Below are positions 1 to 20,053 of a DNA stretch of 51,415 bases, one piece after another (within the stretch, counting starts at the first letter, position 1; the number at the start of each line of letters is the position of its first letter). The notes below the pieces were generated by a model. It did not search any database. It had not been told where the DNA came from and saw nothing but the letters and a program-made list of their open reading frames with translations. The stretch is from a virus (taxonomy: Duplodnaviria; Caudoviricetes), in IMG/VR virus record IMGVR_UViG_3300015241_000018, positions 1 through 51,415 of that record; one strand, 5' to 3'. The position numbers and the translations under genes are program-made.

Positions 1-1
1 C

Positions 2-109: not shown

Positions 110-328
110 GCTCTTCACGTCCTTGTGATTAGATAGCTGGCTAACCTAGTTGCGTTAGCCCTCTAGACATGAGACACTAGGTCTAAGGTCGCAAGACTGA
201 GTTGGCCGCACAGTGAACCAAGGTTGACGGTTATACCCGTAAAGCCCCAACACTGAGGCGATACCCGACAGCTTCCCCAACCTGCAATAATGCAGAGTGC
301 GAAGCTATGAGCAGAGAGAGAGAATACC

Positions 329-1372: not shown

Positions 1373-1578
1373 TGAAGTATCGGCACACGCCTATTCAAAT
1401 TCATGGTGACATTGTGTTAGCATGGGTTTGGAACGGGCAGGAATGGCACGGTTCACCCGGTCACAGATTGCCAGTGTTTAGGTTAAAGAAACCTAAGCCG
1501 GGCATGTGGCGCAATGGCCGCGTACTTTCTATTCCCTTTCGATCCAGCTATGTAACAAACATGGCACCTAACAAATAA
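1372..1578 (+). CDS. Hypothetical protein (68 aa)
   Basis: TAATG coupling to upstream gene; followed by terminator. Confidence 0.55.
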   Translation: MKYRHTPIQIHGDIVLAWVWNGQEWHGSPGHRLPVFRLKKPKPGMWRNGRVLSIPFRSSYVTNMAPNK

Positions 1579-1582
1579 CATT

Positions 1583-1616
1583 AACCCCGTTGCCCTAACC
1601 GGCAGCGGGGTTTTTT
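1583..1616 (+). terminator. Rho-independent terminator
   Basis: AACCCCGTTGCC-CTAACC-GGCAGCGGGGTT stem-loop running into a T6 tract. Confidence 0.9.
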
Positions 1617-1667
1617 ATTGTCTTGATTAGATGCATGCGCATGCATGTTGCGTTGCCGTTATGTTCC

Positions 1668-1713
1668 ATGTTGCACTGCACCATAGATCACTTCTATGTT
1701 GCGATGCAACATA
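1668..1713. promoter_or_regulatory. Two putative PhaR/AniA-type TGC-N3-GCA operators
   Basis: ATGTTGCACTGCACCAT (1668-1684) and perfect dyad TATGTTGC-GAT-GCAACATA (1695-1713). Confidence 0.5.
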
Positions 1714-1786
1714 TCGTGATAGGAATTATACTATGCGCGTGTGTGGGGGATGTGTATGTACCTGGTTAGACTAATCAATTTAGCAT

Positions 1787-1802
1787 TTAATATATGATTA
1801 AC
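1787..1802 (+). promoter_or_regulatory. Putative CtrA box
   Basis: TTAA-TATATGA-TTAAC, exact TTAA-N7-TTAAC consensus, ~100 bp upstream of a sigma70 promoter. Confidence 0.55.
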
Positions 1803-1899
1803 ATGATAGGTTGCCGACGTACGTGTGTATACAGACCCATAATGTCACTGACCTAAATAGACGCTTAAACACTTATAAGCCCATAAGGTTCTGGCTGGT

Positions 1900-1928
1900 T
1901 TGCCTTAAGGAAGTCCAAGTGCTATAAT
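1900..1928 (+). promoter_or_regulatory. Sigma70-type early promoter
   Basis: TTGCCT-17 bp-TATAAT with extended -10 (TGC-TATAAT), upstream of ORF 1972. Confidence 0.7.
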
Positions 1929-1971
1929 CTGGATACTGGGAATTTCTTCCAGAAATTAAGGGGAAATACAA

Positions 1972-2277
1972 ATGGGACCATACAGTAGATACCGGGCTCA
2001 ATTCGAGAACATCCGGAATAACTCCAATCGCGTCATTACCCGACAGGTTGGTGAGATACCCGGTTGTGTGCCAGCAGTGGATGTGTTCATTGAGATGATT
2101 GAAGAACAGGTTCTAACTGAACTTAAAGCCAATCCATACTGGAAGGTATGGAATGACTATCGCTTCGGAGTTATTGGTTGGAATGAGTGGCTTAATCATC
2201 CCATTCATAAGCAACCCATTCGCTCATTCATCAAGAACCCTGTTACCAAATCAACTGGTAACAGGTACAATACTTAG
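1972..2277 (+). CDS. Hypothetical protein (101 aa)
   Basis: AGGGGAAATAC RBS, downstream of promoter. Confidence 0.7.
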   Translation: MGPYSRYRAQFENIRNNSNRVITRQVGEIPGCVPAVDVFIEMIEEQVLTELKANPYWKVWNDYRFGVIGWNEWLNHPIHKQPIRSFIKNPVTKSTGNRYNT

Positions 2278-2399
2278 TCTTGCGACACAAGACACGGCTA
2301 CGCTAGCCCAAATAGCGACACACCAAGACCAAGGTGTATAATAGTCCGAGGCTGGGCATCCTCGCAGCTTCTGCCCAATAACTCTAAGGGGAATGAATA

Positions 2400-2522
2400 G
2401 TGTCTACTAGAACTATATGGATTATAGCTGCTGTGCTCTGGATTATAGCAGCTATTGTAGCTTGTTCAGAGTTGCGTGTTAACGAGAGACCAATCCATCA
2501 CTACCCGCCAATAACTGGCTAA
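2400..2522 (+). CDS. Small membrane protein or lipoprotein (40 aa, MSTRTIWIIAAVLWIIAAIVAC...)
   Basis: Manually translated GTG-start ORF with AAGGGGAAT RBS and a hydrophobic helix ending in a lipobox-like IVAC. Confidence 0.5.
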   Translation: MSTRTIWIIAAVLWIIAAIVACSELRVNERPIHHYPPITG

Positions 2523-2540
2523 CAACAGAAGGGGAATAGC

Positions 2541-2804
2541 ATGTTGCGCATTGTTTGTCTTACTATGTTGATGTCCACATCAGCATTCGCTCAGGGTGGA
2601 TACGGTGGTCCACCAATGTGGGACCGTGGTCCTAATCCTGAATACCGACGAGAGAGGCCTATGCCTCCTCCGCGTCGTCCTTGGGGTCCTCAAATGGAGG
2701 ACTGCATCTACCAAAATAACTGTCGCGGACCGCGTTACCGTGACTTCGAGGATCCCCGTCCATATCCTATGCCTCCTTATCCTCGATACGAGGGGGAGGA
2801 CTAA
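2541..2804 (+). CDS. Putative secreted Pro/Arg-rich protein (87 aa)
   Basis: Signal-peptide-like N-terminus ending SAFA-Q; AAGGGGAATA RBS. Confidence 0.65.
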   Translation: MLRIVCLTMLMSTSAFAQGGYGGPPMWDRGPNPEYRRERPMPPPRRPWGPQMEDCIYQNNCRGPRYRDFEDPRPYPMPPYPRYEGED

Positions 2805-2808
2805 TACA

Positions 2809-2964
2809 ATGGACAAGAATGAACGCATCCTCGTCAAGGTGGGTGCAATCGTTGGTTGGGGCATTGCCCTGGCTTACTTGTGGCCATTGATACCATTGGC
2901 CATACTCAATCGCGTTATCGCGGAAGAACTCAGGCGCAAGGAACAGGACCATGACTCTCGTTGA
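2809..2964 (+). CDS. Small membrane protein (51 aa)
   Basis: Start re-placed at ATG 2809 after GGAGGA; one hydrophobic segment. Confidence 0.55.
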   Translation: MDKNERILVKVGAIVGWGIALAYLWPLIPLAILNRVIAEELRRKEQDHDSR

Positions 2965-3145
2965 GATAGCAATGACTAAGATCAAGGTTACCTATGCACA
3001 TGGCGTGGACGTGTGTATGCCGTGGGAGGATGAGCTGTTCGGCGATTGGTATGAGTTCGCCGACTGGCTGAAGAAGGAAAACCATTCGAACGGTCCTATA
3101 ACAATCATCGCGTGGGAATACGTAGACGCCAAAACAGGCATATAA
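2951..3145 (+). CDS. Hypothetical protein (64 aa)
   Basis: AGGA RBS, overlaps upstream stop. Confidence 0.55.
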   Translation: MTLVEIAMTKIKVTYAHGVDVCMPWEDELFGDWYEFADWLKKENHSNGPITIIAWEYVDAKTGI

Positions 3146-3164
3146 TATACACAGGGGAATACAA

Positions 3165-3347
3165 ATGACTAAGCATACCATGCCTAGATTCGCCATACTG
3201 GTTACACGAGACGATAACAATTGGTGGCACTACGTATTAGTGGTGGACTACAAGACCACTACTACTACGGGTCCATTCGAAACAGCTGACTCTGCATTCA
3301 AGGCAGCGAAGAACGATGCCAATAGGAAGGGATTGTTACCGGTATGA
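3165..3347 (+). CDS. Hypothetical protein (60 aa)
   Basis: AGGGGAATAC RBS; ATGA coupling to next gene. Confidence 0.65.
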   Translation: MTKHTMPRFAILVTRDDNNWWHYVLVVDYKTTTTTGPFETADSAFKAAKNDANRKGLLPV

Positions 3348-3931
3348 AACAGTACGATCGTAAGCGATACGGTCTGTTCATTGATGGGTCTAACCTGTAC
3401 GCTTCAGCTAAGGCCCTCGGTTTCCGAGTGGACTTCTCCAAGATCCACTCTCATTTCTCTAGCATGGGTGACGTAGCCCATGCCATGTACTTCACAGCCC
3501 TGCCACCTAAGACGGTGGAGTCTCCATTGCGTAGGATGGTAGACTTCGTGGAGTACAATGAGTTTACTTTGGTCTCCAAGGAGACTCATACTCACTACGA
3601 TTCAGACAATACACCACGATTGAAGGGGAATATGGATGTTGAGATCGCAGTCTATATGGAGGAGGTTGCTGGTACCCTTACTGATGTCGTTCTGTTCAGC
3701 GGTGACGGCGACTTTCGTTGTCTCATTGAGTCCGTACAGCGTCGTTTCGGTGTCCACGTCACGGTCATATCCACTCGTAGTCTGGTATCGGATGCGCTGC
3801 GACGACAAGCCAACAAGTACATTGACTTGTCCACACTCAAAGACAAGTTCATTCATCAGGCCGATGTGGTCAAGGTGAGTGAAGAAATTAAAGAGAAGCG
3901 TCGTCGGTTCTTGTTCGGCAAAGGGGAATAA
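3344..3931 (+). CDS. NYN domain (LabA/DUF88, PIN-fold) ribonuclease
   Basis: Motifs LFIDGSNLY, KGNMDVEIAV, LFSGDGDF and LRRQA. Confidence 0.92.
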   Translation: MKQYDRKRYGLFIDGSNLYASAKALGFRVDFSKIHSHFSSMGDVAHAMYFTALPPKTVESPLRRMVDFVEYNEFTLVSKETHTHYDSDNTPRLKGNMDVEIAVYMEEVAGTLTDVVLFSGDGDFRCLIESVQRRFGVHVTVISTRSLVSDALRRQANKYIDLSTLKDKFIHQADVVKVSEEIKEKRRRFLFGKGE

Positions 3932-3933
3932 CT

Positions 3934-4566
3934 ATGTTGCAACCATTCTTAGAAGATATGCTCAAAGCACTAGCCATCTTAGCTGGTGTATCGTTGTTCT
4001 TGAACGTAACCAGTCGTAGGATTATGCCTGCAATCGTGTTGATTGGAGGCTTATTCCTATCACAAAACGCCGATGCACGTGGCCATCGTCATCACCACAG
4101 ACATCGCCAACACCATCACGTTGAGAAGGTCAAACATGTCCCAATCCCTCATGTACGTCCGGTTATTCCTGGACCTGTTGATCCCGATCCTGTTCTTGAT
4201 CCTAGTGGTACTCCCGTGGTTGAGACGGTAATGGCTTTCAAGTATACGTTCAAGGATACCATTAAGTATATGGAACCTTGGGCTAATGCTTTGGGAATGT
4301 CTCCCTTTGACTTAATAGCCTATGCTGCCGGACAGCAGGCTTGGACAACTGATCCTTTGGAAGTTGTCCTATACAACCTTGATCGTAGAGCTAAATACGT
4401 CGAGGCTCAACGACAGATTGCCTTAGCTTATTATCTCAGTAATCCACCGCAGAAGAAGGTCCGTGGTTGGAAAGAACCTGTGGGTGTGATCTTCTTATTC
4501 CTCGGAATGTTCGTAGTAGTCGGAACGATGTGGTACGCCGCTCATACGTGGGGTAAGTCCGGTTGA
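3934..4566 (+). CDS. Membrane-associated protein with His-rich tract (210 aa)
   Basis: N- and C-terminal hydrophobic helices; RGHRHHHRHRQHHH tract; AAGGGGAATA RBS. Confidence 0.75.
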   Translation: MLQPFLEDMLKALAILAGVSLFLNVTSRRIMPAIVLIGGLFLSQNADARGHRHHHRHRQHHHVEKVKHVPIPHVRPVIPGPVDPDPVLDPSGTPVVETVMAFKYTFKDTIKYMEPWANALGMSPFDLIAYAAGQQAWTTDPLEVVLYNLDRRAKYVEAQRQIALAYYLSNPPQKKVRGWKEPVGVIFLFLGMFVVVGTMWYAAHTWGKSG

Positions 4567-4620
4567 CTTAGTCAACTAGAAATGGTATGATCTTGATAAT
4601 GCCAAGGAAAGGAGAAAGTT

Positions 4621-5139
4621 ATGGCAAATCGTACTATGGCGGCTAAAAGACTGAAAGAGAAGAAGCAACGACGCGCATGGGCTAAACACCTGGCAATTCC
4701 CAGTGGTATCACTCCCAATCGCGTAATACTTAACGAGTACAAGACGCGTGCGCTGGGCCTAGGTGTGAATGAGTTCGAAGTCGACGAACACATTCGATCT
4801 TGGTACAAGCGCGATCCTCTACATCAGTTGACACCGGGCCAAGAAGAAGTGGCCAAGCTATCTCGGGAGATGCGGTTGCGTCAGCCGGGACTGATGTTCT
4901 TTGATCTATTCAACAATGATGCCCAGCGTTACATCTGTTGGCGCAATGCCGATGGCTCGTGCTGGGTAATCCAATATATCAACAAGAGGAAAGATATGCT
5001 CTTTACCTCTGTTGAATACCCCAATAAGGCTGCCGCCCTGGCTGCCTACAATAATCAGAAGTTACGTTGGGCTCACCATGAGCCTTACGCCCCCGTACAA
5101 TCAGGATTGTGCCCTCCCCTGATTGCTACCGGCGGCTAG
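4621..5139 (+). CDS. Hypothetical protein (172 aa)
   Basis: AAGGAG RBS, basic N-terminus. Confidence 0.8.
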   Translation: MANRTMAAKRLKEKKQRRAWAKHLAIPSGITPNRVILNEYKTRALGLGVNEFEVDEHIRSWYKRDPLHQLTPGQEEVAKLSREMRLRQPGLMFFDLFNNDAQRYICWRNADGSCWVIQYINKRKDMLFTSVEYPNKAAALAAYNNQKLRWAHHEPYAPVQSGLCPPLIATGG

Positions 5140-5161
5140 TAGCCGCACTGCTAGCTGCCCC

Positions 5162-5204
5162 GCCCTCGTGTGCCGCTCCCCTCGGCGCACGGGGGCATTT
5201 CTTT
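5162..5204 (+). terminator. Terminator-like hairpin with CTCCCCT loop
   Basis: 14-bp stem 5162-5175/5183-5196 followed by ATTTCTTT. Confidence 0.6.
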
Positions 5205-5223
5205 GCCTATTGAGGAGATTCCC

Positions 5224-5559
5224 ATGTCTGTTAAAGCCGCACTCGAGAAGCTTCACAAGCAAATCCATGAGGACAAAACCGATGGACGCTTTCCTGTATT
5301 TGTTCTGGGTCTTGAGGTGGGATCTGCGTCTTCATGGAGTAGTTGGGAATGTGAGGAAGATTGCAAGATATACTTTATATTTGAGAACTTCAGACCGCGA
5401 GATAACTTAAAAAAGTTATTTAATAATTGGGATAATATACTGATTGATTATGAGGACGGAGAAATCCACAAGTATACTGACAATGGCGATAGCTGGGATG
5501 TTGATTGGGAATTCCCCATCACGATTCTCTCAATTCAAATCGCCTTGACTACGGACTAA
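5224..5559 (+). CDS. Hypothetical protein (111 aa)
   Basis: Start re-placed at ATG 5224 after GAGGAG RBS. Confidence 0.7.
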   Translation: MSVKAALEKLHKQIHEDKTDGRFPVFVLGLEVGSASSWSSWECEEDCKIYFIFENFRPRDNLKKLFNNWDNILIDYEDGEIHKYTDNGDSWDVDWEFPITILSIQIALTTD

Positions 5560-5570
5560 AGGAGAGAGAA

Positions 5571-6266
5571 GTGGAAGACAGAGGAATGGAGATGTTACGG
5601 AAAGCAGTCTCTCCCCGTGAGAGTCTGACTACCGGAAGCTGGGAAGAGAATACGAGTAACTACATTTCGCGTGTGTTTACTCAAGCAATGGGTTGGGTTG
5701 AGTCTAACCAAAGCAAACTCATCCTGTCCATTGGCGTTACCTTGGTACTGTGCGGTATGGTACTGGGTATTCGGGTCATCTGGCTGCAGTGGTTCCACAA
5801 AAGGTTCTTGGAACTTCACTACAATTGGGTTGTGTATCCTTGGCGTCGCTTCATTAAGCGGCCATACCAATGGGCATTCAAACCATTTCGTCGTATGCAC
5901 CGCAGGTGGTCCGAAAGGAACCTGAGGGCTAAGATGGCTAAGTTCGAGAAGAGACACCTAGCCGATATATTCATTGATGGCTTGTATAAGGGAGCCGAGG
6001 AAGGAGTCATATCAAGACAGACGTTCAAGAAAGTTCAGGCAGGACTTGCTGTGTTCTTCGATCTGCCTGATCTCAATCGTAAGAAGACACATCCTCAAGC
6101 CGTTGCCCATGAACAGGCAATGAAGAAAGCTAAGATCAAAGAGAGGAAAGGTAAAGTACCTGGTCCTCAGAATAAGATTCCCGGCGGCAAGCCCGGCGAG
6201 AATACTACGCCTGTGTATAAGGGGATTGGCCACTCTTACCTGGTCAAGAAGGCAGCTAAAGTTTAA
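5571..6266 (+). CDS. Basic single-pass membrane protein
   Basis: GTG 5571 after AAGGAGAGAG (ATG 5586 is an alternative); TM helix LILSIGVTLVLCGMVLGIRVIWL. Confidence 0.75.
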   Translation: MEDRGMEMLRKAVSPRESLTTGSWEENTSNYISRVFTQAMGWVESNQSKLILSIGVTLVLCGMVLGIRVIWLQWFHKRFLELHYNWVVYPWRRFIKRPYQWAFKPFRRMHRRWSERNLRAKMAKFEKRHLADIFIDGLYKGAEEGVISRQTFKKVQAGLAVFFDLPDLNRKKTHPQAVAHEQAMKKAKIKERKGKVPGPQNKIPGGKPGENTTPVYKGIGHSYLVKKAAKV

Positions 6267-6280
6267 CAGAGAGAGAGAAC

Positions 6281-7843
6281 ATGAACGCAATCAATCAACC
6301 ACAATCGATCGTCCGCAAGAAGGCTGGGTTCACAGTACCCAGAGAATTCTTCGAGACAGCGCTACGAAAGTGTCCATCAGCATCTGGCCTCGCTATACGC
6401 GATGTCGAAGGTGATGTGACTACCTTGTGTCTGGATCGCTTCGATACCACGGCAACCGTCGACAGCCTGATGGAAATGCAGGAGACGATCAAACCCTATG
6501 AGGCAGCCTATTGGTTCGCCAATCTACCCGGCGCCCACAAGGACAGCCTTCAACCATATACTCTCGAGGTACGTGAAGACGAGAGCTCTGAACCCGTAAC
6601 AGTGCTGACCTTCTTCGTCGAAGGTGATATCCCCAAGTACAGTATCGAGGGATCGGAACGTACTGATGAGGCCAACTTCGTCGCCGACGTGGTGATGCCT
6701 CTGCTGGAAGAATACTTTGAAGACTCTGAAGGCGACATCGGCAAGTTCACCGCCAAGTTGCACAAGCCCTCGTTCGAGAAGACCTTGATGGCGTATACCG
6801 GCCATCGAGCCATCTTCCTGTTCCTGCCTCTCGAAGGCGACCCGATCATGTTCGGTGATTCCAAGGGATTGGGCTCCGACTACGACTGGGGGAGTGTGTC
6901 TCAACACCTGGACTGGGACAAGAAGAAGGAGGAAACTCCTATCACAAAAGCGGCTGACGCGATCGTGGCAGGCGTCAAGAAGTACTCACTCATGGGTAAG
7001 AAAACCCCAGCAGTCACCACTGACGATAAGGGGATACATCACACTGCCCCAAAGCCGGCAGCTCCTCACCCCGATGCAGCAGCGGCCAAGGCTGGCGACA
7101 TTGCTTTGCCCACGGCTACAGCCGGTACACGAACTCGTGTCGAAGTTGTCGTCCCGAAGAAGCTGGACGGTGATGCCCGGAACATTTGGATTAGACTGTT
7201 CAATGATGGTGAGCTCCCAAAGGACCATCAGAAAAAAGACCTCAAGATTTGGGTCTACTCCGACCAAGTTCCCTTCGCTACTCGGGATGGGATCGTTACT
7301 AAGGCTCACGTCAAGGGACTGGAGAAGGAGATGCAAGGTCTCAAGCTCCCACCTCAGGACATGAAGGCCGCAGCACCCACGCCAGTAGCTCCCAAGTCTG
7401 GCTCAGACATTGCCAAGGAACGGGTGGCAGCAGGAGCCAGATCACCAGCAGACTTCATCCCGGACATGGACGACAAGGACATGACCGAACAGACTACCGT
7501 TCTCTCCGGCTTCGTCGGACGAGATAAGGTGCCAAGCTGGATGGAAATCCAGAAACTCGAAGCACCATGGCCCACGTATAGCCAGAAGATGGGAATACCT
7601 TTCGCCGATCTTCTGCGCTATACTGTCGGGGACATCTCTGCACTCTGCAAGGGCCACAAGCCATCGGTGATGCTCATCTTGGAGTTCAGGCGCAACCTGC
7701 TCCAGATGTTGTCAGCCGACAAGCTCAAGGACCTCATTGGTACGGCAACGACGGTCGAGAAGGAAACCGACAAGCACATCAAGGCCCAGGAAGTCCTCAA
7801 GCCTTCGGCCAACAAGAAGTACTCTGTCTTCGGTAAGAAATAA
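6281..7843 (+). CDS. Protein with degenerate class II glutamine amidotransferase (Ntn)-like N-terminal domain (520 aa)
   Basis: IVRKKAGFTVPREFFETALRKCPSASGLA, LQPY and ERTDEANFVADVVMPLL follow the pattern of phage GATase-II proteins, but there is no N-terminal Cys or HNG motif. Confidence 0.55.
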   Translation: MNAINQPQSIVRKKAGFTVPREFFETALRKCPSASGLAIRDVEGDVTTLCLDRFDTTATVDSLMEMQETIKPYEAAYWFANLPGAHKDSLQPYTLEVREDESSEPVTVLTFFVEGDIPKYSIEGSERTDEANFVADVVMPLLEEYFEDSEGDIGKFTAKLHKPSFEKTLMAYTGHRAIFLFLPLEGDPIMFGDSKGLGSDYDWGSVSQHLDWDKKKEETPITKAADAIVAGVKKYSLMGKKTPAVTTDDKGIHHTAPKPAAPHPDAAAAKAGDIALPTATAGTRTRVEVVVPKKLDGDARNIWIRLFNDGELPKDHQKKDLKIWVYSDQVPFATRDGIVTKAHVKGLEKEMQGLKLPPQDMKAAAPTPVAPKSGSDIAKERVAAGARSPADFIPDMDDKDMTEQTTVLSGFVGRDKVPSWMEIQKLEAPWPTYSQKMGIPFADLLRYTVGDISALCKGHKPSVMLILEFRRNLLQMLSADKLKDLIGTATTVEKETDKHIKAQEVLKPSANKKYSVFGKK

Positions 7844-7844
7844 G

Positions 7845-7964
7845 AACCCCGCGAGAGTGGGTTAATCGCACTAGCACGGTCAGGTGACCGCTGACTAGTA
7901 GTGGTGGAGTGATGACCATGGATGTTTAACCTGACGTTTTCATCCATGGTCCCTTCCTCAGGGG
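7845..7964 (+). other. Structured intergenic leader with four hairpins
   Basis: Hairpins 7845-7863, CGGTC/GACCG 7877-7890, perfect 11-bp GACCATGGATG/CATCCATGGTC 7914-7951, and CCCT-TCCTC-AGGG covering the RBS. Confidence 0.55.
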
Positions 7965-7972
7965 TATTTCCA

Positions 7973-8626
7973 ATGTTTAATAATGAAGCTAAAGCTCATC
8001 AAACCCTCCATCGGTTTGCTATGTCACGTACGAGATTTACTCCGGACATAGCTTACCTCGAACTCAGACAGTTCAACCTCGTATTCATCTGTGATGATGC
8101 AATGCTCGCAGGTAAGAACTACTCCCTCATACAAGAACACTCGGCGAAGGTGGCTAGAGGCTTCACTCGCAAAGCTTTCAACTTCTACGTCAAGCAGACG
8201 GATGGGTCTGCTATTCCCATGAGAGTCAAGCAGCAGCCAGGGTACTTCTCCTTTTCTTCCCTTAAGATCAAGGGTGAGATACATGCTGTGACGGCTGAAG
8301 GCATCATTAGACTTGACCACCACTACCAAAATGGAGTACAATACCGTCGAACTAGGACTCAGATCCTATTTCCCACCACTGAGCATGGTCGCGTAGTCAA
8401 TCGCGATGTCCAAGGTAGAGAACTCCCGCCTTGCTTAAGTGACAAGGATTATATACTCCCCGAGCGCGTAGATATTATTGATTGTTTCATGTACACTGGT
8501 GTACCGAACTATTGGAATGACTTACTCGACGGGGGTTTTGCATTTCAACCCTGTCCCATTAGATATCCGAAAGAAGAGAAGAGTTGGTTAATCAAATATT
8601 ACCATTATCAAAATCAACGAGGATAG
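7973..8626 (+). CDS. Gamma-glutamyl cyclotransferase (AIG2/GGCT)-like protein, divergent
   Basis: LVFICDDAM, IKGEIHAV, IIRLDHHY..G..YRR and CFMY follow the GGCT pattern; start at ATG 7973 after AGGGG. Confidence 0.7.
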   Translation: MFNNEAKAHQTLHRFAMSRTRFTPDIAYLELRQFNLVFICDDAMLAGKNYSLIQEHSAKVARGFTRKAFNFYVKQTDGSAIPMRVKQQPGYFSFSSLKIKGEIHAVTAEGIIRLDHHYQNGVQYRRTRTQILFPTTEHGRVVNRDVQGRELPPCLSDKDYILPERVDIIDCFMYTGVPNYWNDLLDGGFAFQPCPIRYPKEEKSWLIKYYHYQNQRG

Positions 8627-14465: not shown

Positions 14466-16439
14466 ATGCGCGTCGTAATTGATATTGAATGTAATGGATT
14501 ACACAATCCCACACAGATTTGGGTCATTGTCTGCAAGGATATTGATACAAATTCCTATCACATTTTTAGAAATATAACCTCAGATGAAAATGAACTTAAT
14601 AGGTTTACTGAATTCAGCAACCAAGTGGCTCTTTGGATTGGCCACAATTTCTTGGGGTATGACCTCATTCATCTCCAACGACTTACAAACTGTCCGGCAT
14701 TCCACGATAATGATGTCGTTGTCTTACATAGCCTGGACACTCTTATTCTTTCCAAACTCATCGACTACCCCAGACAAGGCCACAGCATAGAAAGCTATGG
14801 TCTTGAGTTTGGAATGGAGAAGGGGAAGTATTCCGACTGGTCTAAGTATTCGTTAGATATGGAAGAATATTGTAAGAGAGACGTAGATATCTGTAGTAAG
14901 ATATATACTAAGTATCTTAGTTACATTGATAATGAAGAACATAGATTATGTATATCTATAGAACATAGGTTCCAATGTATAGTCAACGCCCTTAGTAGTA
15001 ATGGTTTTTCTTTCAATAAAGACAAAGCTACTAAGTTACTTAGTAAGGTAGAAGAAGAGCTAGCTATATTGGATGTGTCTATCTTAGAAGCATTCCCTCC
15101 CAAACTTAAACTGATTAGGGAAGTAACTCCTAAGGAGACTAAATATGGTACTATTAGTCTTACGTCTATACCTAAAGCTCTTAGAGATGACATTGCATCT
15201 CTTAGTGTGGGTAGCCCGTTCTCCTACTGTACGTGGGAAACCTTTAATCCTAGCAGCCATAAGCAAATTGTACATGTCCTTACTGAAGCATCTTGGCGTC
15301 CGGTAGACAAGACACAGACACACATAGATACTGAAAGAGAACTCACTAAGCTAAAACATACTAAACAACGTTCTAATGAACTTGACTTAAGACTTAAAGA
15401 ATTATATACTAAGCTCGAACTAATGAAGAAGGTTGGATGGAAGGTCAACGAGACTAATCTCGAAACCTTACCAAGAACAGCCCCTCCCAGTGCACGCTTC
15501 CTAGCGAAGCGTATCCTCCTTGAGTCCAGACGTCGTACACTCGTTGAGTGGCTAGGCCTAGTTGATGTAGGTGATGGCCGTATACACGGGCGCTTCTACG
15601 GAATAGGCGCCTGGACTCATAGGATGGCTCACCAACAGCCTAACACTGCTAACATTCCCAATGAATTTGATACTGCAGGTAAGAAGAAACTATACGGTAA
15701 AGAACTTAGATCATTGTGGCAGGCTCCTAAGAATAGATTATTAGTTGGAGTAGATGCTGAGGGAATACAACTTCGTATCTTCGCACATTACATCAATGAC
15801 CCTGATTTTACATTTGCTTTGGTCAACGGTAAGAAGGAAGATAAGAGTGACCCGCACAGTCTTAATCAATCCATTCTCGGATCTGTCTGTAAAAGTAGAG
15901 CAGCAGCCAAACGTTATATCTATGCCCTCCTTCTCGGAGCAGGACCAGGAAAACTGCAAGAGATTTTGGGATGCAGTGGTGAAGATGAACGCCAAGCTTA
16001 TGGAAGATTGGTTTCCAGATATACAGGGTTCGCTCATCTCAAAGAAACGATCATACCTCGTGACGCGAGACGAGGATGGTTCCGTGGACTTGACGGACGT
16101 TCAGTTCGTATCCTTGGAGACAGCGATGGAACACGTCGACACTTGTGTATGTCTGGCTACCTTCAAAACGGTGAAGCTGTCGTAATGAAGTCTGCCACTC
16201 TCAAGTGGCATCACCTACTCAAGCAAGACAATGCCATTCTCGTAAACTTAGTGCACGATGAATGGCAGACAGAAGTCCCCAACAATATGGAGGTAGCATT
16301 ACGTATAGCAAAGATGCAAGCAGACAGTCTGCGAGAAGTAGGTGAAGACCTTAAACTTAATTGTCCTCTAGCCGGTTCCTATTGGAACGATGACGACAAG
16401 GACTATACTATAGATACTAACTGGAGTAGGACACATTGA
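14466..16439 (+). CDS. DNA polymerase, family A, with 3'-5' exonuclease
   Basis: Exo motifs DIE, GHNFLGYD and YCKRD; motif A DAEGIQLR; motif B RAAAKRYIYALLLG; motif C VHDE. Confidence 0.96.
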   Translation: MRVVIDIECNGLHNPTQIWVIVCKDIDTNSYHIFRNITSDENELNRFTEFSNQVALWIGHNFLGYDLIHLQRLTNCPAFHDNDVVVLHSLDTLILSKLIDYPRQGHSIESYGLEFGMEKGKYSDWSKYSLDMEEYCKRDVDICSKIYTKYLSYIDNEEHRLCISIEHRFQCIVNALSSNGFSFNKDKATKLLSKVEEELAILDVSILEAFPPKLKLIREVTPKETKYGTISLTSIPKALRDDIASLSVGSPFSYCTWETFNPSSHKQIVHVLTEASWRPVDKTQTHIDTERELTKLKHTKQRSNELDLRLKELYTKLELMKKVGWKVNETNLETLPRTAPPSARFLAKRILLESRRRTLVEWLGLVDVGDGRIHGRFYGIGAWTHRMAHQQPNTANIPNEFDTAGKKKLYGKELRSLWQAPKNRLLVGVDAEGIQLRIFAHYINDPDFTFALVNGKKEDKSDPHSLNQSILGSVCKSRAAAKRYIYALLLGAGPGKLQEILGCSGEDERQAYGRLVSRYTGFAHLKETIIPRDARRGWFRGLDGRSVRILGDSDGTRRHLCMSGYLQNGEAVVMKSATLKWHHLLKQDNAILVNLVHDEWQTEVPNNMEVALRIAKMQADSLREVGEDLKLNCPLAGSYWNDDDKDYTIDTNWSRTH

Positions 16440-16585
16440 TTAAAGATATTGATGATCTATTAAATAGATTGGATGATCCCTCTAATACAGATGAATACGG
16501 AGACTGGTCCTTTAGATTTTCTGATGTTGAAAGAGATTTAATTATTGATGCATTAATACTTTACAAGGAGATGAATATTAAGTAA
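16436..16585 (+). CDS. Small acidic protein (49 aa)
   Basis: Manually translated MIKDIDDLLNRLDD...; overlaps both neighbours (TTGA and TAATG). Confidence 0.55.
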   Translation: MIKDIDDLLNRLDDPSNTDEYGDWSFRFSDVERDLIIDALILYKEMNIK

Positions 16586-17079
16586 TGGTATTTTACGGCA
16601 AGACAGAAACAATATACATACAAGGTAAGGTGGCTTGGTTCAAGCCTAACATACCTAATAAGTGGGATAAGTATTCTGTACAGATACACCCACAGCCTAA
16701 GGACTTGGAAGTCATCCGTGACTTACAGGCCAGAGGTCTTAAAAATCAAATGAAGAAAGACGATGATGGTTATTTCATACATTTCACACGACCTATATCC
16801 AAGCGATTTCAATCGGGTAAGATACGGGTATTCGAGCCCATCGAGGTATTCGACAAAGCTGGTGTTCCTTACGATGGTCCTGTTGGTAACGGATCAGATG
16901 CGACCCTGAAGATTGAAGTCTACGAGCATGAAGTTCCCGGTGGTGGTAAATCTGTTGCTGCCAGGTGGGTGTCAGCTCGTATCGATAACTTAGTTCCTTA
17001 CGAACCTGATCGGGACCTCACGGAAGGTCAACGCGAAGCCGCAGCAGGTTTGAAAGAGCAGCCAGAACAACTCTTCTGA
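16585..17079 (+). CDS. ssb: Single-stranded DNA-binding protein
   Basis: Follows the polymerase; VGNGSDATLKIEVY motif typical of podophage SSBs; acidic tail ending ...PEQLF. Confidence 0.8.
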   Translation: MVFYGKTETIYIQGKVAWFKPNIPNKWDKYSVQIHPQPKDLEVIRDLQARGLKNQMKKDDDGYFIHFTRPISKRFQSGKIRVFEPIEVFDKAGVPYDGPVGNGSDATLKIEVYEHEVPGGGKSVAARWVSARIDNLVPYEPDRDLTEGQREAAAGLKEQPEQLF

Positions 17080-17081
17080 CC

Positions 17082-18530
17082 GTTGGAGTGCTAAACACTT
17101 TTCAACAAACAGATCGCTAAGAAGCGAGCCGGGGAAAAGTTGTTCTAGCTTTACTAGGAGTCGACCGTGGGTGAAAACTCTTCCCGTGAAGATTGGGTAA
17201 GTCCCTGCACCCCGAGAGAATAACGGCGCTCTCCGTATTATTTAACACCAGCAACGCGAACCCTCCCCGCTCCGGGATACCCCAACCTCCCGCAGGACTC
17301 AGGTGCCTGGTTGCTGTGACTGCCTCGTATAGCCAGGCAGACCAAGAGACCGTTTGACCGTTCGTCTGCTAAAACGGTAGAGTATCATCCTACTGGGAAT
17401 ATAGCTGTTCGGGTGACGCCCCAGAACTTCGTCAGCAATAGACCATGAGTGTGGGTGCAATCCCCACTGGCACTACTACGGTGGCGAACCTAATAGGAGT
17501 GCATGGTGAGCAAGACAGTGAGCGAAGGTAGCGTGAGCGCCAGCACATGTGTATCATTAACACAATGACTGTCAGATCAAATAGATGTCGCGTATGCTAG
17601 GGTCGGTAGTGACCGATGCTATAACCTCTGTAGAGGGCGCGTATGAGGGTAAAGGCCTTGCCTTAACTGGCTAGAGTGTCTGAAGCGATAGTAGGTGGTA
17701 GAATTAGATGTCCAACCGGAGAGTTCGATCCTCTCCCCCCGTGTATCGGGGACTGGCGGCTGTAGGACTGGACCACTTGGTATGTGGAGGTTCGTGGACT
17801 AGGGATATACACATGGGGTGCAACCTGTGCATGTCAGTTCAAGTCTGACCCGGATATCGTAATGAAGTAGGACACCGATAAAAGCGAGACCCGACCGGAC
17901 AACGTCATCGGTATTGGCGTTAGCTTAGCGGTAAGAGTTCACCTCTCAACTACTCTGACCCGACTGCTAGGAAGCGCGTCATCTGGACTGCGCCTTCAGG
18001 AAGCGTAGACGCAGCATTCTATGACTGTACACTGGATACCTTGTAACCTCCAGGCTATTGCAGCAGTATGTACGATGCCGGAAGGCCTTAGGATGTGGAG
18101 CAACGATTATTGATCGTCTGGCTCAATATAGACTGCGTACATTCGCAGGGATGTGGTCTTCGTACCGTTCGGATGGTAGAAAGTATGTATCACTAGGTCA
18201 GGTTCCTAGCATTGAGCATGCGACGGCCAGGATACGTAAGAGCATCAAGCAACAGACTACTGTGACTAGGTGTACCGCTCAAGGACTGTGAGCCAGAGAG
18301 CATACGCTGAATGGGTGGAGTAAGACGCCTCTAACGCTGTCTAATAACATGGATGGTAAGAGCCGCAAGCCGGTCCAGCAAGTCCATATAACTGAATTCC
18401 AGTAACGCCAGATAAGCGTGAATCTAGCTGATGGAGGAGCCAATGCCCAAAAGAGCCTCTCAACAGCAGCCCCAGCCTCCTTAATACAACCAAGATGGTG
18501 GGGAGTGCCGAGTACGAGTACTCCCCAAGC
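17082..18530 (+). ncRNA. Candidate large structured noncoding RNA or RNA cluster (~1.45 kb)
   Basis: No ORF of 60 aa or more in 17080-18057 and only weak ORFs after; continuous hairpins, including T-arm-like stems at 17451-17467, 17718-17736 and 17833-17849. Boundaries approximate. Confidence 0.65.
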
Positions 18531-18549
18531 CACAGAAGGAGTAGATGTT

Positions 18550-18900
18550 ATGAGTAGATTTGGAGATATGATGACCATCGCGAAGATGCTCAATGACTCT
18601 AAGTCAGAGAAGCCATCTAAGCCGTGGAAGAAAGCTTCTAAGGAAAAGGATCCAATCGCTATACTGATTGAATTTCAGGAGAAGATGGATCGATATAATA
18701 AATGGCAGAAAGACCAGGAGAAGATTAACAAGAAGGAAGATAAGAAGGAACACAAAGGCTTGCTACCAGCCGACTGGTCAGTAGCCAAGCAGACAGCCTT
18801 CTTTGCCTTGGCTGGTCCACCGATAGCCATAGGATATTTATTCGGAATTATTATTCTGGTACGTATGCTCTCAGTATTTATTGTAGGATCACATGGATGA
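18550..18900 (+). CDS. Membrane protein (116 aa)
   Basis: Start re-placed at ATG 18550 after AAGGAG; C-terminal TM helix. Confidence 0.7.
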   Translation: MSRFGDMMTIAKMLNDSKSEKPSKPWKKASKEKDPIAILIEFQEKMDRYNKWQKDQEKINKKEDKKEHKGLLPADWSVAKQTAFFALAGPPIAIGYLFGIIILVRMLSVFIVGSHG

Positions 18901-18987
18901 TAAGATGTGAATACTGCACACAACCTGAAGAAGAATTATTGAAGCTAGATAAAGAACTATTAGAAATGAAAGAGTTAATACTAAAAG

Positions 18988-19854
18988 GTGATAAAAGATA
19001 TAAACACATTAATCCCGGACATCTACAAGCTAGTAGGCGGGAAGGAGAATTGGCTACAAGGTGACATCGCTAATCAGTTCACAACTGAACTCACTATTAA
19101 ACTCCAAGGATCCCTTGAAGAGAAAGGCAGCCCTAGGCTACGTCTCTCAGGTATGGGCCCAAAGTGCCACTGCGCACTGTGGCACTCAATACATTCCGCA
19201 ATGGATGCGGAACCACTCCCCCCTTGGGCTAAAATCAAATACACCTACGGACACATACTTGAAGCGCTTGTAATCGCAATGGCCAAGGCTGCCGGCCATG
19301 AAGTAACAGGAGAACAGGATGCTGTATCTGTTGACGGGATCGTGGGGCATAGAGATTGTGTCATTGACGGCTGCATCGTGGACGTTAAGTCTGCTTCTAG
19401 CCGTGGCTTCCAAAAGTTCAAGGACCGTTCAATCACATCCGATGATACTTTTGGCTACTTGGATCAACTTGATGGCTATATTGTGGGGTCCCTTCATGAC
19501 CCCCTTGTTCGGGATAAAGAGCATGGCTATCTATTAGCAATCGACAAAACATTAGGACATATGTGTTTATATGAGCATACTGCGCGCGAAGAAAGTATTA
19601 GAAAAAGAATTCGAGATTATAGAGATGTCGTCGCTCTTAGTAGAGCTCCACCGTGCACTTGTGAACAAGTTCCCGATGGAAAGTCCGGAAACATTAAGCT
19701 GGGCATTAGAGCAAGCTATAATGCGTTTAAGTACCAGTGTCACCCACAGCTTCGAACCTTTCTCTACGCAAGTGGACCAGTCTACCTCACCCATGTTGCC
19801 AGAAAGCCAGACGTAATTGAGATAGACAAATACGGTAAAGTAGTTTATAATTAA
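18988..19854 (+). CDS. PD-(D/E)xK (Cas4-like) exonuclease
   Basis: YGHILE, GHRDCVIDGCIVDVKS and YLDQLDGY motifs. Confidence 0.85.
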   Translation: MIKDINTLIPDIYKLVGGKENWLQGDIANQFTTELTIKLQGSLEEKGSPRLRLSGMGPKCHCALWHSIHSAMDAEPLPPWAKIKYTYGHILEALVIAMAKAAGHEVTGEQDAVSVDGIVGHRDCVIDGCIVDVKSASSRGFQKFKDRSITSDDTFGYLDQLDGYIVGSLHDPLVRDKEHGYLLAIDKTLGHMCLYEHTAREESIRKRIRDYRDVVALSRAPPCTCEQVPDGKSGNIKLGIRASYNAFKYQCHPQLRTFLYASGPVYLTHVARKPDVIEIDKYGKVVYN

Positions 19855-19870
19855 TACATTGGAGAACGAA

Positions 19871-20053
19871 ATGATTACCAGAGAATACGAGATTACTCCC
19901 CTTGAGAATGGCTATGTTGTAGAACACTCTTTTAAAGAACCCACAGATGGATTAGAATTCAACTACAAGTACAAGAGGTATATGTTTACTGATTGGAATG
20001 GCGTAGTCGATTGGGTAAAGAATAATCCCATTGCCATCCCGCAAGAAACCTAA
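19871..20053 (+). CDS. Hypothetical protein (60 aa)
   Basis: GGAG RBS before ATG 19871. Confidence 0.6.
   Translation: MITREYEITPLENGYVVEHSFKEPTDGLEFNYKYKRYMFTDWNGVVDWVKNNPIAIPQET

What the first reader, a model, noticed from the sequence alone, without database searches (positions are those of the whole stretch)
17082..18530. ~1.45 kb hairpin-dense region without a convincing gene: candidate giant phage ncRNA with three T-arm modules
Seen: this otherwise tightly packed genome leaves ~1.45 kb inside the replication operon without a credible gene. The region is tiled with stems. Three hairpins have 7-nt T-loop-like loops: GTGGG-TGCAATC-CCCAC (17451), GGAGAG-TTCGATC-CTCTCC (17718) and GTCAG-TTCAAGT-CTGAC (17833). 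There is a D-arm-like TAGCTTAGCGGTAAGAG (~17921), GNRA hairpins such as GCC-GGAA-GGC, and multibranch closers (CAGCAAC/GTTGCTG, CCATG/CATGG, GACAGT/ACTGTC, ACCGAT/ATCGGT). None completes a tRNA cloverleaf. Known: phage-borne large RNAs such as GOLLD and ROOL use T-loop and GNRA tertiary modules and are generally under 1 kb. Inference: this is a divergent or new large structured RNA, possibly a scaffold or a tRNA-mimicking decoy against host anticodon nucleases.
Basis: partly seen in the sequence, partly recalled or inferred. Interest (0 to 1): 0.9.

Follow-up and report, generated by a model that had tools for sequence, protein, structure and literature searches.

The report
New giant structured phage RNA
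The gene-free stretch encodes a conserved, elaborately folded RNA of about 1,150 bases that carries tRNA-like hairpins, matches no known RNA family, and is found in a group of uncultured soil phages.

Summary
Window 17236-18392 (+ strand) is a conserved structured RNA of about 1.16 kb. It lies between an SSB-like gene and a Cas4-like exonuclease gene.

- **Non-coding:** no ORF, no 3-base substitution periodicity, no tRNA, no Rfam match.
- **Homologues:** 25 distinct sequences from soil viral and metagenome contigs, about 60% identical between lineages.
- **Covariation:** 122 of 249 predicted pairs change on both sides (shuffled mean 66, 0 of 500 shuffles; slid controls 23-39). Five held-out sequences keep 83-94% pairing.
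- **T-arms:** two hairpins are exact tRNA T-arms (GG-TTCGANY-CC) with compensatory stems. Relatives carry a third.
- **Folding energy:** no better than shuffles (z +0.5 to +2.2), so comparison, not thermodynamics, supports the structure.
- **Boundaries:** the 5' 155 nt are not conserved. The 3' 100 nt are not part of the RNA. They hold a tiny leader ORF ending Pro-Pro-stop, found in 21 of 21 loci, plus a hairpin before the next gene.

Function is unknown and expression is untested. My best guess is a folded RNA particle presenting tRNA-elbow-like modules. It is a new class, longer than GOLLD.

The parts
16585..17079 (+). Upstream flank: 164-aa ORF, probably a phage ssDNA-binding protein, with an acidic tail ending EQPEQLF
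   Evidence: Translation. No Pfam or PHROG hit and no PDB sequence hit. Language-model look-alikes are clusters carrying PF24083/PF10991/SBB_T7, score 0.97, which is a lead only. Strong period-3 substitution signal of 8.6-27.9.
17082..17235 (+). Variable spacer, not part of the conserved RNA
   Evidence: Absent in L004, L053 and L031, where the upstream stop codon abuts the conserved start. Partly shared only with L047. nhmmer matches begin at profile position about 96-111 in most homologues.
17236..18392 (+). Conserved structured RNA core, about 1,157 nt
   Evidence: 25 distinct homologous sequences. Alignment A1 has 222 invariant columns of 1320 window positions. 249 predicted pairs are 91.5% paired, and 122 have changes on both sides. 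G.U 318 cells against A.C 93 cells gives the + strand. No period-3 signal.
17251..17314 (+). 5' helix CAGCA/TGCTG (17251-17255 with 17310-17314) enclosing hairpin 17293-17309
   Evidence: Covariation scan: 5 bp, 3 covarying pairs. Hairpin 17293-17296/17306-17309 has 4 of 4 pairs covarying.
17387..17534 (+). Long-range helices 17387-17394/17527-17534 and 17404-17409/17514-17519, closing a variable subdomain
   Evidence: 7 and 6-7 pairs, with 5 and 4-5 compensatory (helices 7 and 8).
17451..17467 (+). Hairpin GTGGG-UGCAAUC-CCCAC with a T-loop-like loop; lineage-variable
   Evidence: Present with compensatory stems in the window, L032, L041 and L002, which is 4 of 12 rows of A1. Other lineages have different inserts here.
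17541..17571 (+). Hairpin with conserved loop UCUCAUUAG
   Evidence: Inner stem 17548-17552/17560-17564: 5 of 5 pairs covary, the top covariation score in the scan.
17654..17891 (+). Central multi-branch domain closed by long-range helices (17654-60/17885-91, 17674-81/17870-76, 17685-88/17857-60)
   Evidence: helices 20-24. Independent RNAalifold on 15 sequences including L006, L008 and L038: 23 of 32 pairs have compensatory changes.
17718..17736 (+). T-arm 1: GGAGAG-UUCGAUC-CUCUCC, the canonical tRNA T-arm consensus
   Evidence: 6 bp, 5 covarying, 100% paired (helix 27). Shuffle test.
17737..17760 (+). Hairpin CCCCG-UGUAU-CGGGG followed by invariant ACUGGCGGC; with T-arm 1 this is the most widely conserved core
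   Evidence: Model R1 hits the window once (17713-17765, E 8e-16). The motif is present in the distant clade L014, L019, L021.
17811..17830 (+). Hairpin with loop GGUGCAAC (UGCAA/UGAAA in relatives), 2 nt upstream of T-arm 3
   Evidence: 6 bp, 5 covarying (helix 33).
17833..17849 (+). T-arm 3: GUCAG-UUCAAGU-CUGAC
   Evidence: 5 bp, 3 covarying, 98% paired (helix 34).
17929..17962 (+).
   Evidence: 17929-31/17960-62 has 3 of 3 pairs covarying. 17934-38/17952-56 has 4 of 5.
17999..18120 (+). 3' domain with nested helices, a conserved GGAA tetraloop (18080-18083) and hairpin 18103-18117
   Evidence: helices 42-48. Found by nhmmer in 33 loci, the duplicate records included, but not in L006, L008 or L016.
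18269..18308 (+). Hairpin 18269-18274/18303-18308
   Evidence: 6-8 pairs, 5-6 covarying (helix 53).
18433..18484 (+). Leader ORF: SD GGAGGAG 18433-18439, ATG 18443, MPKRASQQQPQPP, TAA 18482-18484
   Evidence: A short ORF (9-23 codons) with its own SD and ending Pro-Pro-stop is present in 21 of 21 loci examined. Pro codons vary synonymously (CCT/CCC/CCA).
18500..18526 (+). Hairpin GGGGAGU...ACUCCCC between the leader ORF and the next gene
   Evidence: 11 pairs, 8 covarying (helix 56).
18536..18900 (+). SD AAGGAG 18536-18541 and 116-aa ORF (ATG 18550) with a hydrophobic C-terminal segment
   Evidence: No Pfam or PHROG hit.
18988..19854 (+). Downstream flank: Cas4-domain exonuclease, used to collect the related loci
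   Evidence: phrog_1990, E 4e-21. 22 related loci.

Best explanation
SHOWN. Window 17236-18392 (+ strand) encodes a conserved, multi-domain structured RNA of about 1.16 kb. It belongs to a family that is not in Rfam. It is a core feature of one clade of uncultured soil podophages of about 51 kb. It always lies in the replication module between an SSB-like gene and the unit formed by a Pro-Pro-stop leader ORF, a small membrane-like ORF and a Cas4-like exonuclease. It contains canonical tRNA T-arms (G53-T54-T55-C56-R57-A58-N-Y-C61): two in this phage and three in most relatives. It also has further UGNAA loops, a conserved GGAA tetraloop, long-range helices closing multi-branch domains, and many invariant unpaired stretches.

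INFERRED, about 0.3. The RNA is made as part of the rightward replication-gene transcript; no promoter or terminator above chance flanks it. It works as a compactly folded RNA particle. The T-loops act as tertiary staples, and invariant C56 implies a docking G. They also present tRNA-elbow-like surfaces to host machinery that reads tRNA elbows (RNase P, ribosome, tRNA-modifying or tRNA-targeting enzymes). The RNA would therefore act as a scaffold, decoy or processing handle during infection.

A leader peptide ending (R/Q)-P-P-stop probably pauses ribosomes at termination, just upstream of a conserved hairpin and the next gene's ribosome-binding site.

The confidence given (0.7) blends about 0.9 for the identity claim with about 0.3 for the mechanism.
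For: - No ORF, and all three stops frequent in six frames.
- Substitution period-3 power is 0-3.1 across the RNA against 8.6-27.9 in the adjacent ORF.
- A gap of 970-2855 nt lies between the SSB-like ORF and the leader ORF in 21 of 21 loci.
- 25 distinct homologous sequences, 57-69% identical between lineages.
- On A1 (12 sequences), 91.5% of cells are paired against 80.4% in shuffles and 36-41% in slid controls.
- 122 of 249 pairs change on both sides, against a shuffled mean of 66.3 (sd 4.7; 0 of 500) and 23-39 in slid controls. The covariation score is 0.368 against 0.181.
- Hold-out: five sequences not used for the structure keep 82.9-94.5% pairing against 31-42% slid, with 11-31 both-side changes each.
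- The central domain refolded by the tool on 15 sequences gives 23 of 32 pairs compensatory.
- Strand: G.U 318 against A.C 93 cells. All T-arms are on the + strand.
- T-arm enrichment: 2 observed against 0.007 expected.
- The core motif is found in the distant clade L014, L019, L021.
- No known family.
- No similar DNA in 50,697 phage records.
Against: - Folding energy is no better than dinucleotide shuffles and is worse for the core: z +0.54, +0.50, +2.20.
- There is no evidence of transcription, stability or ends. No RNA run holds the sequence, and no promoter or terminator is above chance (3 and 4 sites against shuffle means of 5.0 and 2.6).
- The secondary structure was derived from the same alignment on which most covariation was counted. 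The hold-out test and the slid controls mitigate this but do not remove it.
- With 12 sequences, 4-bp chance helices reach covariation sums of about 1.5-2, so weaker helices are unreliable.
- Model R1 did not recover the most distant relatives at E<0.01: L005, L007, L009-L012, L015, L017, L020, L022, L023. Their homology rests on position, T-arms and inspection.
- Nothing tested here bears on the proposed interaction with tRNA-handling machinery.
- Some lineages (L006, L008, L038) have lost T-arm 1, and 3 of 12 sequences lack T-arm 2. No single T-arm is therefore indispensable.
Confidence: 0.7

Rival explanations
1. The whole 1.2 kb is a giant cis-acting leader of the downstream operon (leader ORF, 116-aa ORF, exonuclease). 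Its fold controls processing, stability or translation of the downstream message and has no trans function.
For: The RNA and the Pro-Pro-stop leader ORF always occur together and in the same order (21 of 21 loci). No terminator-like site separates them. A conserved hairpin lies between the leader ORF and the next SD (helix 56).
Against: Known bacterial and phage leaders are far shorter (general knowledge). The best conserved parts, the central T-arm domain and the 5' domain, lie 600-1200 nt upstream of the leader ORF. A variable linker (18393-18432) separates the RNA from it. No covariation supports pairing between the RNA core and the leader-ORF region: the predicted helices there have 0 compensatory pairs (helix 41).
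Confidence: 0.15
2. A decayed tRNA gene cluster: the T-arms are remnants of phage tRNA genes, and the rest is drifting spacer.
For: T-arm spacing of 72-75 and 103-108 nt in L002 and L004 is close to tRNA length. Phages often carry tRNA clusters (general knowledge). The hairpin before T-arm 3 has a loop reading U-GCA-A or U-GAA-A.
Against: ARAGORN finds 0 tRNAs in the window and in 22 loci. The Rfam tRNA model finds nothing at E<=10 in the window region or E<=1 in 10 loci. No acceptor or D arms are present. The sequence between and around the T-arms is itself highly conserved (222 invariant columns) and forms covarying non-tRNA helices, including long-range ones. Drift would not keep these.
Confidence: 0.03
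3. A DNA-level element such as the replication origin or a packaging or recombination site, with stems formed in single-stranded DNA.
For: It lies in the replication module next to the DNA polymerase, SSB-like and exonuclease genes.
Against: No iterons or repeat arrays: only two 12-nt two-copy matches. The region is G+C-rich rather than A+T-rich. There is a strand-specific excess of G.U over A.C (318 against 93). The T-loop and GNRA motifs are RNA motifs. The 1.16 kb of conserved sequence far exceeds known origins (general knowledge).
Confidence: 0.05
4. An unrecognised self-splicing intron or other mobile ribozyme interrupting the replication operon.
For: Phage replication genes often host group I introns (general knowledge). 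The element is large, structured and free of ORFs.
Against: No group I/II intron or ribozyme model matches, even at permissive thresholds. The upstream ORF ends with a complete SSB-type acidic tail, and the downstream ORF has its own SD and start, so no split gene is apparent. The element is at the same site in all relatives, with divergence tracking the flanking genes. That indicates vertical inheritance rather than mobility.
Confidence: 0.03
5. A patchwork of small translated ORFs rather than an RNA gene.
For: One small conserved ORF does exist at the 3' end.
Against: No period-3 substitution pattern anywhere in 17230-18430 (maximum 3.1 against 8.6-27.9 in the coding control). Covariation follows base-pairing, not codons.
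Confidence: 0.02

Closest known systems
GOLLD RNA (Rfam RF01998) and ROOL RNA (RF03087): large ornate phage/prophage RNAs
   Same: Phage-encoded, very large, ORF-free, multi-domain, with structure supported by covariation and function unknown. GOLLD and ROOL are associated with tRNAs: they lie 'often near tRNA islands', and tRNAs are sometimes found in the GOLLD linker (passages read in bioRxiv 10.1101/2024.12.08.627333).
   Different: No sequence or structure match to either model. At about 1.16 kb it is longer than GOLLD, which that paper calls the largest of the three classes it analysed, 'many members exceeding 800 nucleotides'. The tRNA-like parts here are T-arms built into the conserved core, not adjacent whole tRNAs. 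It lies in the replication module of a podophage with no tRNA genes. No covarying palindromic loops of the kind that mark GOLLD/OLE multimer contacts were found.
tRNA, and tRNA-like domains of tmRNA, bacterial Y RNA (YrlA) and viral TLS
   Same: Exact T-arm consensus GG-UUCGANY-CC with a 5-6-bp covarying stem.
   Different: No acceptor stem, D arm or anticodon arm. ARAGORN and the Rfam tRNA, tmRNA and Y-RNA models do not match. The T-arm is followed by another hairpin and an invariant ACUGGCGGC, not by an acceptor strand. The element is about ten times larger.
T-loop motif as a tertiary module in RNase P RNA, T-box stem I, rRNA and raiA
   Same: Recurrent U-(U/G)-N-R-A loops closed by a pair. 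A raiA T-loop with an intercalated A is described in the passages read. The other examples are recalled.
   Different: Here the loops keep the full tRNA sequence signature, not just the minimal motif. Their three-dimensional role is untested.
Termination-stalling leader peptides (TnaC; PepNL) and C-terminal Pro-Pro slow termination
   Same: A short leader ORF with its own SD and a conserved C-terminal residue pattern immediately before the stop, upstream of a regulated-looking gene. TnaC and PepNL act at the stop codon (abstract starts seen in the listing: PMC8450073, PMC11890864).
   Different: No sequence similarity to TnaC or PepNL was tested. Only the last 2-3 residues, (R/Q)PP, are conserved. 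Stalling is inferred from recalled knowledge that C-terminal prolines slow termination. No effector is known.

Membership tests
tRNA | Cloverleaf with acceptor, D, anticodon and T arms, detectable by ARAGORN or Rfam RF00005 | tested here: not met
   0 genes in the window and in 22 related loci. No RF00005 match at E<=10 (window 16900-18700) or at E<=1 (10 loci).
tRNA | T-arm: 5-bp stem and 7-nt loop, G53 T54 T55 C56 R57 A58 N Y C61 | tested here: met
   17718-17736 and 17833-17849. Stems covary (helices 27 and 34). 2 observed against 0.007 expected.
GOLLD / ROOL / OLE / HEARO / raiA (large bacterial and phage RNAs in Rfam) | Match to the family covariance model | tested here: not met
   cmscan of all 4227 Rfam 15 models: 0 at gathering over the whole window. 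Only chance hits (IRES_Bip E 5.8; mir-252 E 0.65) at permissive thresholds.
tmRNA | tRNA-like domain plus tag reading frame | tested here: not met
   ARAGORN and Rfam are negative.
Group I / group II introns, RNase P RNA, small ribozymes | Match to the Rfam models; a split host gene for introns | tested here: not met
   No matches. The flanking ORFs look complete.
Structured non-coding RNA (generic) | Base pairs maintained by compensatory changes beyond controls | tested here: met
   122 of 249 pairs against 66.3 shuffled (0 of 500) and 23-39 slid. Hold-out pairing 83-94% against 31-42%. 23 of 32 pairs compensatory.
Structured non-coding RNA (generic) | Thermodynamic stability above shuffled sequence | tested here: not met
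   z +0.54, +0.50, +2.20.
Structured non-coding RNA (generic) | Expressed as a stable transcript | not testable with these tools
   No RNA run holds the sequence. The host is unknown.
Ribosome-arrest / termination-stalling leader peptides | Short ORF with its own SD, upstream of a gene, with a conserved C-terminal motif at the stop | tested here: met
   21 of 21 loci: 9-23 codons, an SD-like sequence, ending PP-stop. The preceding residue is R in 12, Q in 8 and V in 1; an extra short ORF in L016 ends EPP. Wobble variation within the Pro codons.
Ribosome-arrest / termination-stalling leader peptides | Ribosome actually stalls, and this changes downstream expression | not testable with these tools
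   Needs toeprinting or reporter assays.

The most novel reading that the evidence does not exclude
This is a previously undescribed class of giant ornate RNA: a core of about 1.16 kb, and up to about 1.3 kb in relatives. It is longer than GOLLD and is a vertically inherited core gene of a soil podophage clade. Its fold is built around several genuine tRNA T-arm modules. It acts in trans as a tRNA-elbow-presenting particle that captures or diverts host tRNA-reading machinery (ribosome, RNase P, tRNA-modifying or tRNA-cleaving defence enzymes). It is functionally coupled to a Pro-Pro-stop ribosome-pausing leader immediately downstream.
Probability: 0.3. Interest if true: 0.92.

Novelty: new variant of a known kind. 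Interest (0 to 1): 0.85.

Why it matters
Very few large, highly structured non-coding RNAs are known in bacteria and phages; GOLLD, ROOL and OLE are the main examples. Each has opened new structural biology, such as RNA-only nanocages, while its function remains unsolved. This element adds a new class. It is longer, it comes from a different phage lifestyle and habitat (lytic-type soil podophages), and it sits in a different genomic setting (the replication module). Its unusual feature is several canonical tRNA T-arms embedded in the conserved core.

The alignment already carries more than 100 covarying pairs, so it is ready for structure determination and for biochemical tests with tRNA-binding factors. 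The universally linked Pro-Pro-stop leader ORF is a second, independent lead. It may be a phage regulatory device that reads the host's capacity to terminate or to translate prolines.

Tried and rejected
- **Expression:** no RNA holder was listed for window 16000-19900. The 11 rows that hold part of it are soil DNA runs, all with under half of the words.
- **Whole-RNA RNAalifold by the tool:** The full alignment was folded with ViennaRNA in a script, and the central domain was folded with the tool.
- **Structure prediction of the 164-aa flank:** The SSB assignment therefore rests on the language-model lead and the acidic tail. Profile and sequence searches of the PDB gave nothing meaningful.
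- **Genome-contig scan with the 20-base motif:** one hit in a Lachnospiraceae MAG (L060). None of the nhmmer sub-profiles nor model R1 matched it, so I treat it as chance. No host was identified.
- **The genome search 'relatives':** not available for a virus record.
- **Model R1 (53 positions):** too small to reach the most distant relatives. Hits at E 0.19-0.81 in L017, L020, L022 and L023 are T-arm-only and were not counted.
- **Multimer contacts:** no covarying palindromic loops, only invariant TCGA, CGCG, TTAA, TATA and ACGT.
- **Iterons or repeats:** none.
- **Sigma-70 promoters and intrinsic terminators:** not above shuffles. A conserved -10-like TAnnAT at the RNA's 5' boundary overlaps the upstream stop codon in three lineages and has no conserved -35, so it was not called a promoter.
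- **Alternative genetic code:** rejected, because all three stops are common in every frame.
- **Anti-SD-like strings:** CCUCCUUAA is explained by the Pro-Pro-stop codons (synonymous variation), not by an RNA motif. Pairing of GAGGGUAAAGG with it has no covariation.
- **Literature:** three full-text searches found no description of this RNA. PMC10690425 predicted about 8,500 short structured RNAs (mean 67 nt) from IMG/VR. I read passages only, and its supplementary tables could not be seen, so pieces of this RNA may be among them.
Full report
**What is at the coordinates.** The window is a complete IMG/VR virus record of 51,415 bp. Rightward genes encode a primase/helicase, an AAA ATPase, a DUF7192 protein, a family-A DNA polymerase (14466-16439), a 164-aa ORF (16585-17079), a 116-aa ORF (18550-18900), a Cas4-domain exonuclease (18988-19854) and an endonuclease.

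Between 17080 and 18549 no frame stays open for more than 88 codons. TAA, TAG and TGA are all common in all six frames, so no stop reassignment rescues a gene. G+C rises to 0.50-0.54 against 0.40-0.41 in the flanking bins.

ARAGORN finds no tRNA or tmRNA in the window. Rfam 15 gives nothing at gathering thresholds over the whole window. At E<=10 it gives only a chance IRES_Bip match, inside the upstream ORF. blastn against 50,697 phage records finds nothing.

**Chance controls on the single sequence.** Minimum free energy is not better than dinucleotide-preserving shuffles:

| Stretch | Strand | z-score |
|---|---|---|
| 17082-18030 | + | +0.54 |
| 17082-18030 | - | -0.14 |
| 17644-17895 | + | +0.50 |
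| 17230-18229 | + | +2.20 |

'Hairpin-dense' is not, by itself, more than chance.

The tRNA-type T-arm hairpins are far above chance. Two have a perfect 5-bp stem and a TTCRANN loop, against a shuffle mean of 0.007 (0 of 3000 shuffles). They are the only two on the + strand of the entire genome.

**Relatives.** The exonuclease retrieved 22 related IMG/VR loci at 54-83% protein identity. All those that include the upstream region have the same arrangement: an SSB-like ORF of about 160 aa, a stretch of 970-2855 nt with no large conserved ORF, a tiny ORF, an ORF of about 100 aa, then the exonuclease.

The closest three (L002-L004) align with the window over the whole gap. Identity is patchy, up to 95% over 87 nt, while the neighbouring ORF is 68-70% identical.

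A conserved 26-nt motif retrieved 9 viral and 27 metagenome stretches. nhmmer then defined 25 distinct homologous sequences, 16 of them near full length. They fall into about eight lineages that are 57-69% identical to each other. A second motif added two more viral contigs. The run search listed the window's DNA only in soil metagenome runs, each holding under a quarter of the sampled words. The nearest cultured phages by DNA polymerase are marine Roseobacter and Lentibacter podophages at 33-37% identity. The host is unknown.

**Structure.** I aligned 12 non-redundant full-length sequences (A1) and derived an RNAalifold consensus with ViennaRNA. The tool's pair counting gave these results for 249 pairs in 56 helices:

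| Measure | Observed | Shuffled | Slid controls |
|---|---|---|---|
| Cells paired | 91.5% | 80.4% | 36-41% |
| Pairs changed on both sides | 122 | 66.3 (sd 4.7; 0 of 500) | 23-39 |
| Covariation score | 0.368 | 0.181 | 0.064-0.077 |

The structure came from the same alignment, so I ran a hold-out test. Five sequences not used for the structure were added to the alignment (L026, L059, L058, L056, L040).
- They keep 82.9-94.5% of pairs, against 31-42% when the partner is slid.
- Each shows 11-31 both-side changes relative to the training consensus.
- Four distant sequences (L006, L008, L038, L016) keep 63-71%.

The tool's own RNAalifold on 15 central-domain sequences, including the distant L006, L008 and L038, recovers the long-range closing helices and the T-arms. 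23 of 32 pairs are compensatory. An unbiased covariation scan ranks the same helices highest.

The RNA strand is +. G.U cells outnumber A.C cells 318 to 93, and all T-arms read correctly only on the + strand. The pattern of substitutions has no 3-base periodicity anywhere in the RNA (0-3.1), whereas the adjacent ORF gives 8.6-27.9. The region is therefore not tiled by conserved small ORFs.

**Anatomy in window coordinates.**
- **17082-17235, variable spacer.** It is missing in three lineages, where the upstream stop codon abuts the conserved start.
- **17236-18392, conserved RNA.** It has 222 invariant positions of 1320 aligned.
- **5' domain.** It includes helix 17251-55/17310-14, the hairpins at 17293-17309 and 17320-17340, and the long-range helices 17387-94/17527-34 and 17404-09/17514-19 around a variable insert. 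That insert holds the 17451 UGCAAUC hairpin, which 4 of 12 sequences have. The domain also includes a hairpin with the conserved loop UCUCAUUAG (17541-71) and the block GCGCGUAUGAGGGUAAAGG.
- **Central domain (17654-17891).** It is closed by three covarying long-range helices and contains:
  - T-arm 1 (17718-36);
  - an adjoining hairpin and the invariant ACUGGCGGC (17737-60);
  - in 9 of 12 sequences a second T-arm module, which this phage, L041 and L031 lack;
  - a hairpin with a UGCAA/UGAAA loop (17811-30);
  - T-arm 3 (17833-49).
- **3' domains.** These include a hairpin with the conserved 13-nt loop UCACCUCUCAACU (17929-62), a nested domain at 17999-18120 with a conserved GGAA tetraloop whose closing pairs covary, and further covarying hairpins up to 18354.

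The T-arms match the full tRNA consensus (G53 T54 T55 C56 R57 A58 N Y C61). The flanks, however, form non-tRNA helices, and neither ARAGORN (22 loci) nor Rfam at E<=1 (10 loci) sees a tRNA.

**Breadth.** The unit formed by T-arm 1, the hairpin and ACYGGCGG is also present in the distant clade L014, L019, L021, whose exonucleases are 54-58% identical. A covariance model of it (R1) hits the window once (E 8e-16) and the non-training L016 at E 0.006.

In L005, L007, L010, L020 and L022 a T-arm followed by a hairpin and UGGCG is visible by inspection, but R1 does not reach them. Strict T-arm hairpins occur on the + strand inside the gap in 15 of 22 loci. Weak blastn links connect the divergent gaps transitively. 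The module composition varies: L006, L008 and L038 have lost T-arm 1 and the 17999-18120 domain.

In 21 of 21 loci a 9-23-codon ORF with its own Shine-Dalgarno sequence ends in Pro-Pro-stop, preceded by R (12), Q (8) or V (1). In the window this is:
- SD at 18433-39;
- ATG at 18443;
- peptide MPKRASQQQPQPP;
- TAA at 18482-84.

The two Pro codons vary at the wobble position (CCT, CCC, CCA), which argues for a coding rather than an RNA constraint. A covarying hairpin (18500-26; 8 of 11 pairs compensatory) and the SD and ATG of the 116-aa ORF follow.

From recalled knowledge, C-terminal prolines slow termination. Leader peptides such as TnaC and PepNL act at the stop codon; I saw only the abstract starts of PMC8450073 and PMC11890864 in the listing. 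On that basis this looks like a ribosome-pausing leader. That reading is inference.

**What it most likely is and does.** It is shown that this is a real, conserved, + strand structured RNA of a new family. How it works is inference.

No promoter or terminator above chance flanks it, so it is probably made as part of the replication-operon transcript and perhaps processed. The strict tRNA signature of the T-arms, including invariant C56, suggests two roles. The loops may dock on G-containing partners as tertiary staples. They may also form tRNA-elbow-like surfaces that host tRNA-reading factors could recognise. I put about 0.3 on a trans-acting scaffold or decoy of this kind and about 0.15 on a purely cis-acting giant leader. 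Small probabilities go to an origin-like DNA element, an intron or ribozyme, decayed tRNA genes and small ORFs. Each of these is argued against by specific results given under the rival explanations.

**Comparison and novelty.** The closest known things are GOLLD and ROOL. Like this RNA they are phage-borne, ornate, of unknown function and associated with tRNAs (passages of bioRxiv 10.1101/2024.12.08.627333). Membership was tested and not met.

This RNA differs in four ways:
- it is longer than GOLLD;
- it has its tRNA-like pieces built into the core;
- it sits in the replication module of a podophage that has no tRNA genes;
- it shows no covarying palindromic loops.

Three full-text searches found no description of it. 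A survey of short structured RNAs in IMG/VR (PMC10690425, passages read) may list fragments of it in supplements that I could not open.

**Limits.**
- Expression is unverified.
- The host is unknown.
- The SSB assignment of the upstream ORF is a lead only, because the structure job failed.

Noticed in passing
window 18433-18484, and the equivalent place in L002-L023: A tiny leader ORF with its own SD, ending (R/Q)-Pro-Pro-stop, is present in 21 of 21 loci, with synonymous variation in the Pro codons. It is likely a ribosome-pausing leader for the 116-aa ORF and the exonuclease operon.
   Followed up: partly
window about 17770-17777 (A1 columns 715-795): This phage, L041 and L031 lack an ~80-nt module carrying a second canonical T-arm (GG-TTCGATS-CC) that 9 of 12 aligned relatives have. 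L006, L008 and L038 instead lack T-arm 1 and the 17999-18120 domain and carry a ~70-nt insert. The RNA is therefore modular.
   Followed up: partly
window 17939-17951 and 18046-18053: The conserved unpaired or loop strings UCACCUCUCAACU and UAACCUCC resemble the anti-Shine-Dalgarno end of 16S rRNA. This was not tested for any pairing partner.
   Followed up: no
window 17060-17076 with 17134-17150: A 17-nt inverted repeat (88% complementary) links the last codons of the SSB-like gene with the variable spacer. Conservation was not examined.
   Followed up: no
window 17236-17248: The conserved boundary string TAnnAT-TTAACAC (a -10-like hexamer) lies at the RNA's 5' edge. In L004, L053 and L031 it overlaps the stop codon of the upstream gene. 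No conserved -35 was seen.
   Followed up: partly
window 16585-17079: The 164-aa ORF has no Pfam, PHROG or PDB sequence match. It ends in an acidic tail with a terminal Phe (EQPEQLF), and its nearest language-model clusters carry phage ssDNA-binding families. It is probably a T7 gp2.5/Enc34-type SSB.
   Followed up: partly
window 1-8600: Seven ORFs of 172-520 aa at the left end have no PHROG match at all. No phage RNA polymerase was recognised among those scanned, so transcription is presumably by the host enzyme.
   Followed up: no
L060 (Lachnospiraceae MAG contig), 4419-4444: This was the only genome contigs match to the 20-base RNA motif. No profile or model hit surrounds it, so it is a chance match and not a host clue.
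   Followed up: yes
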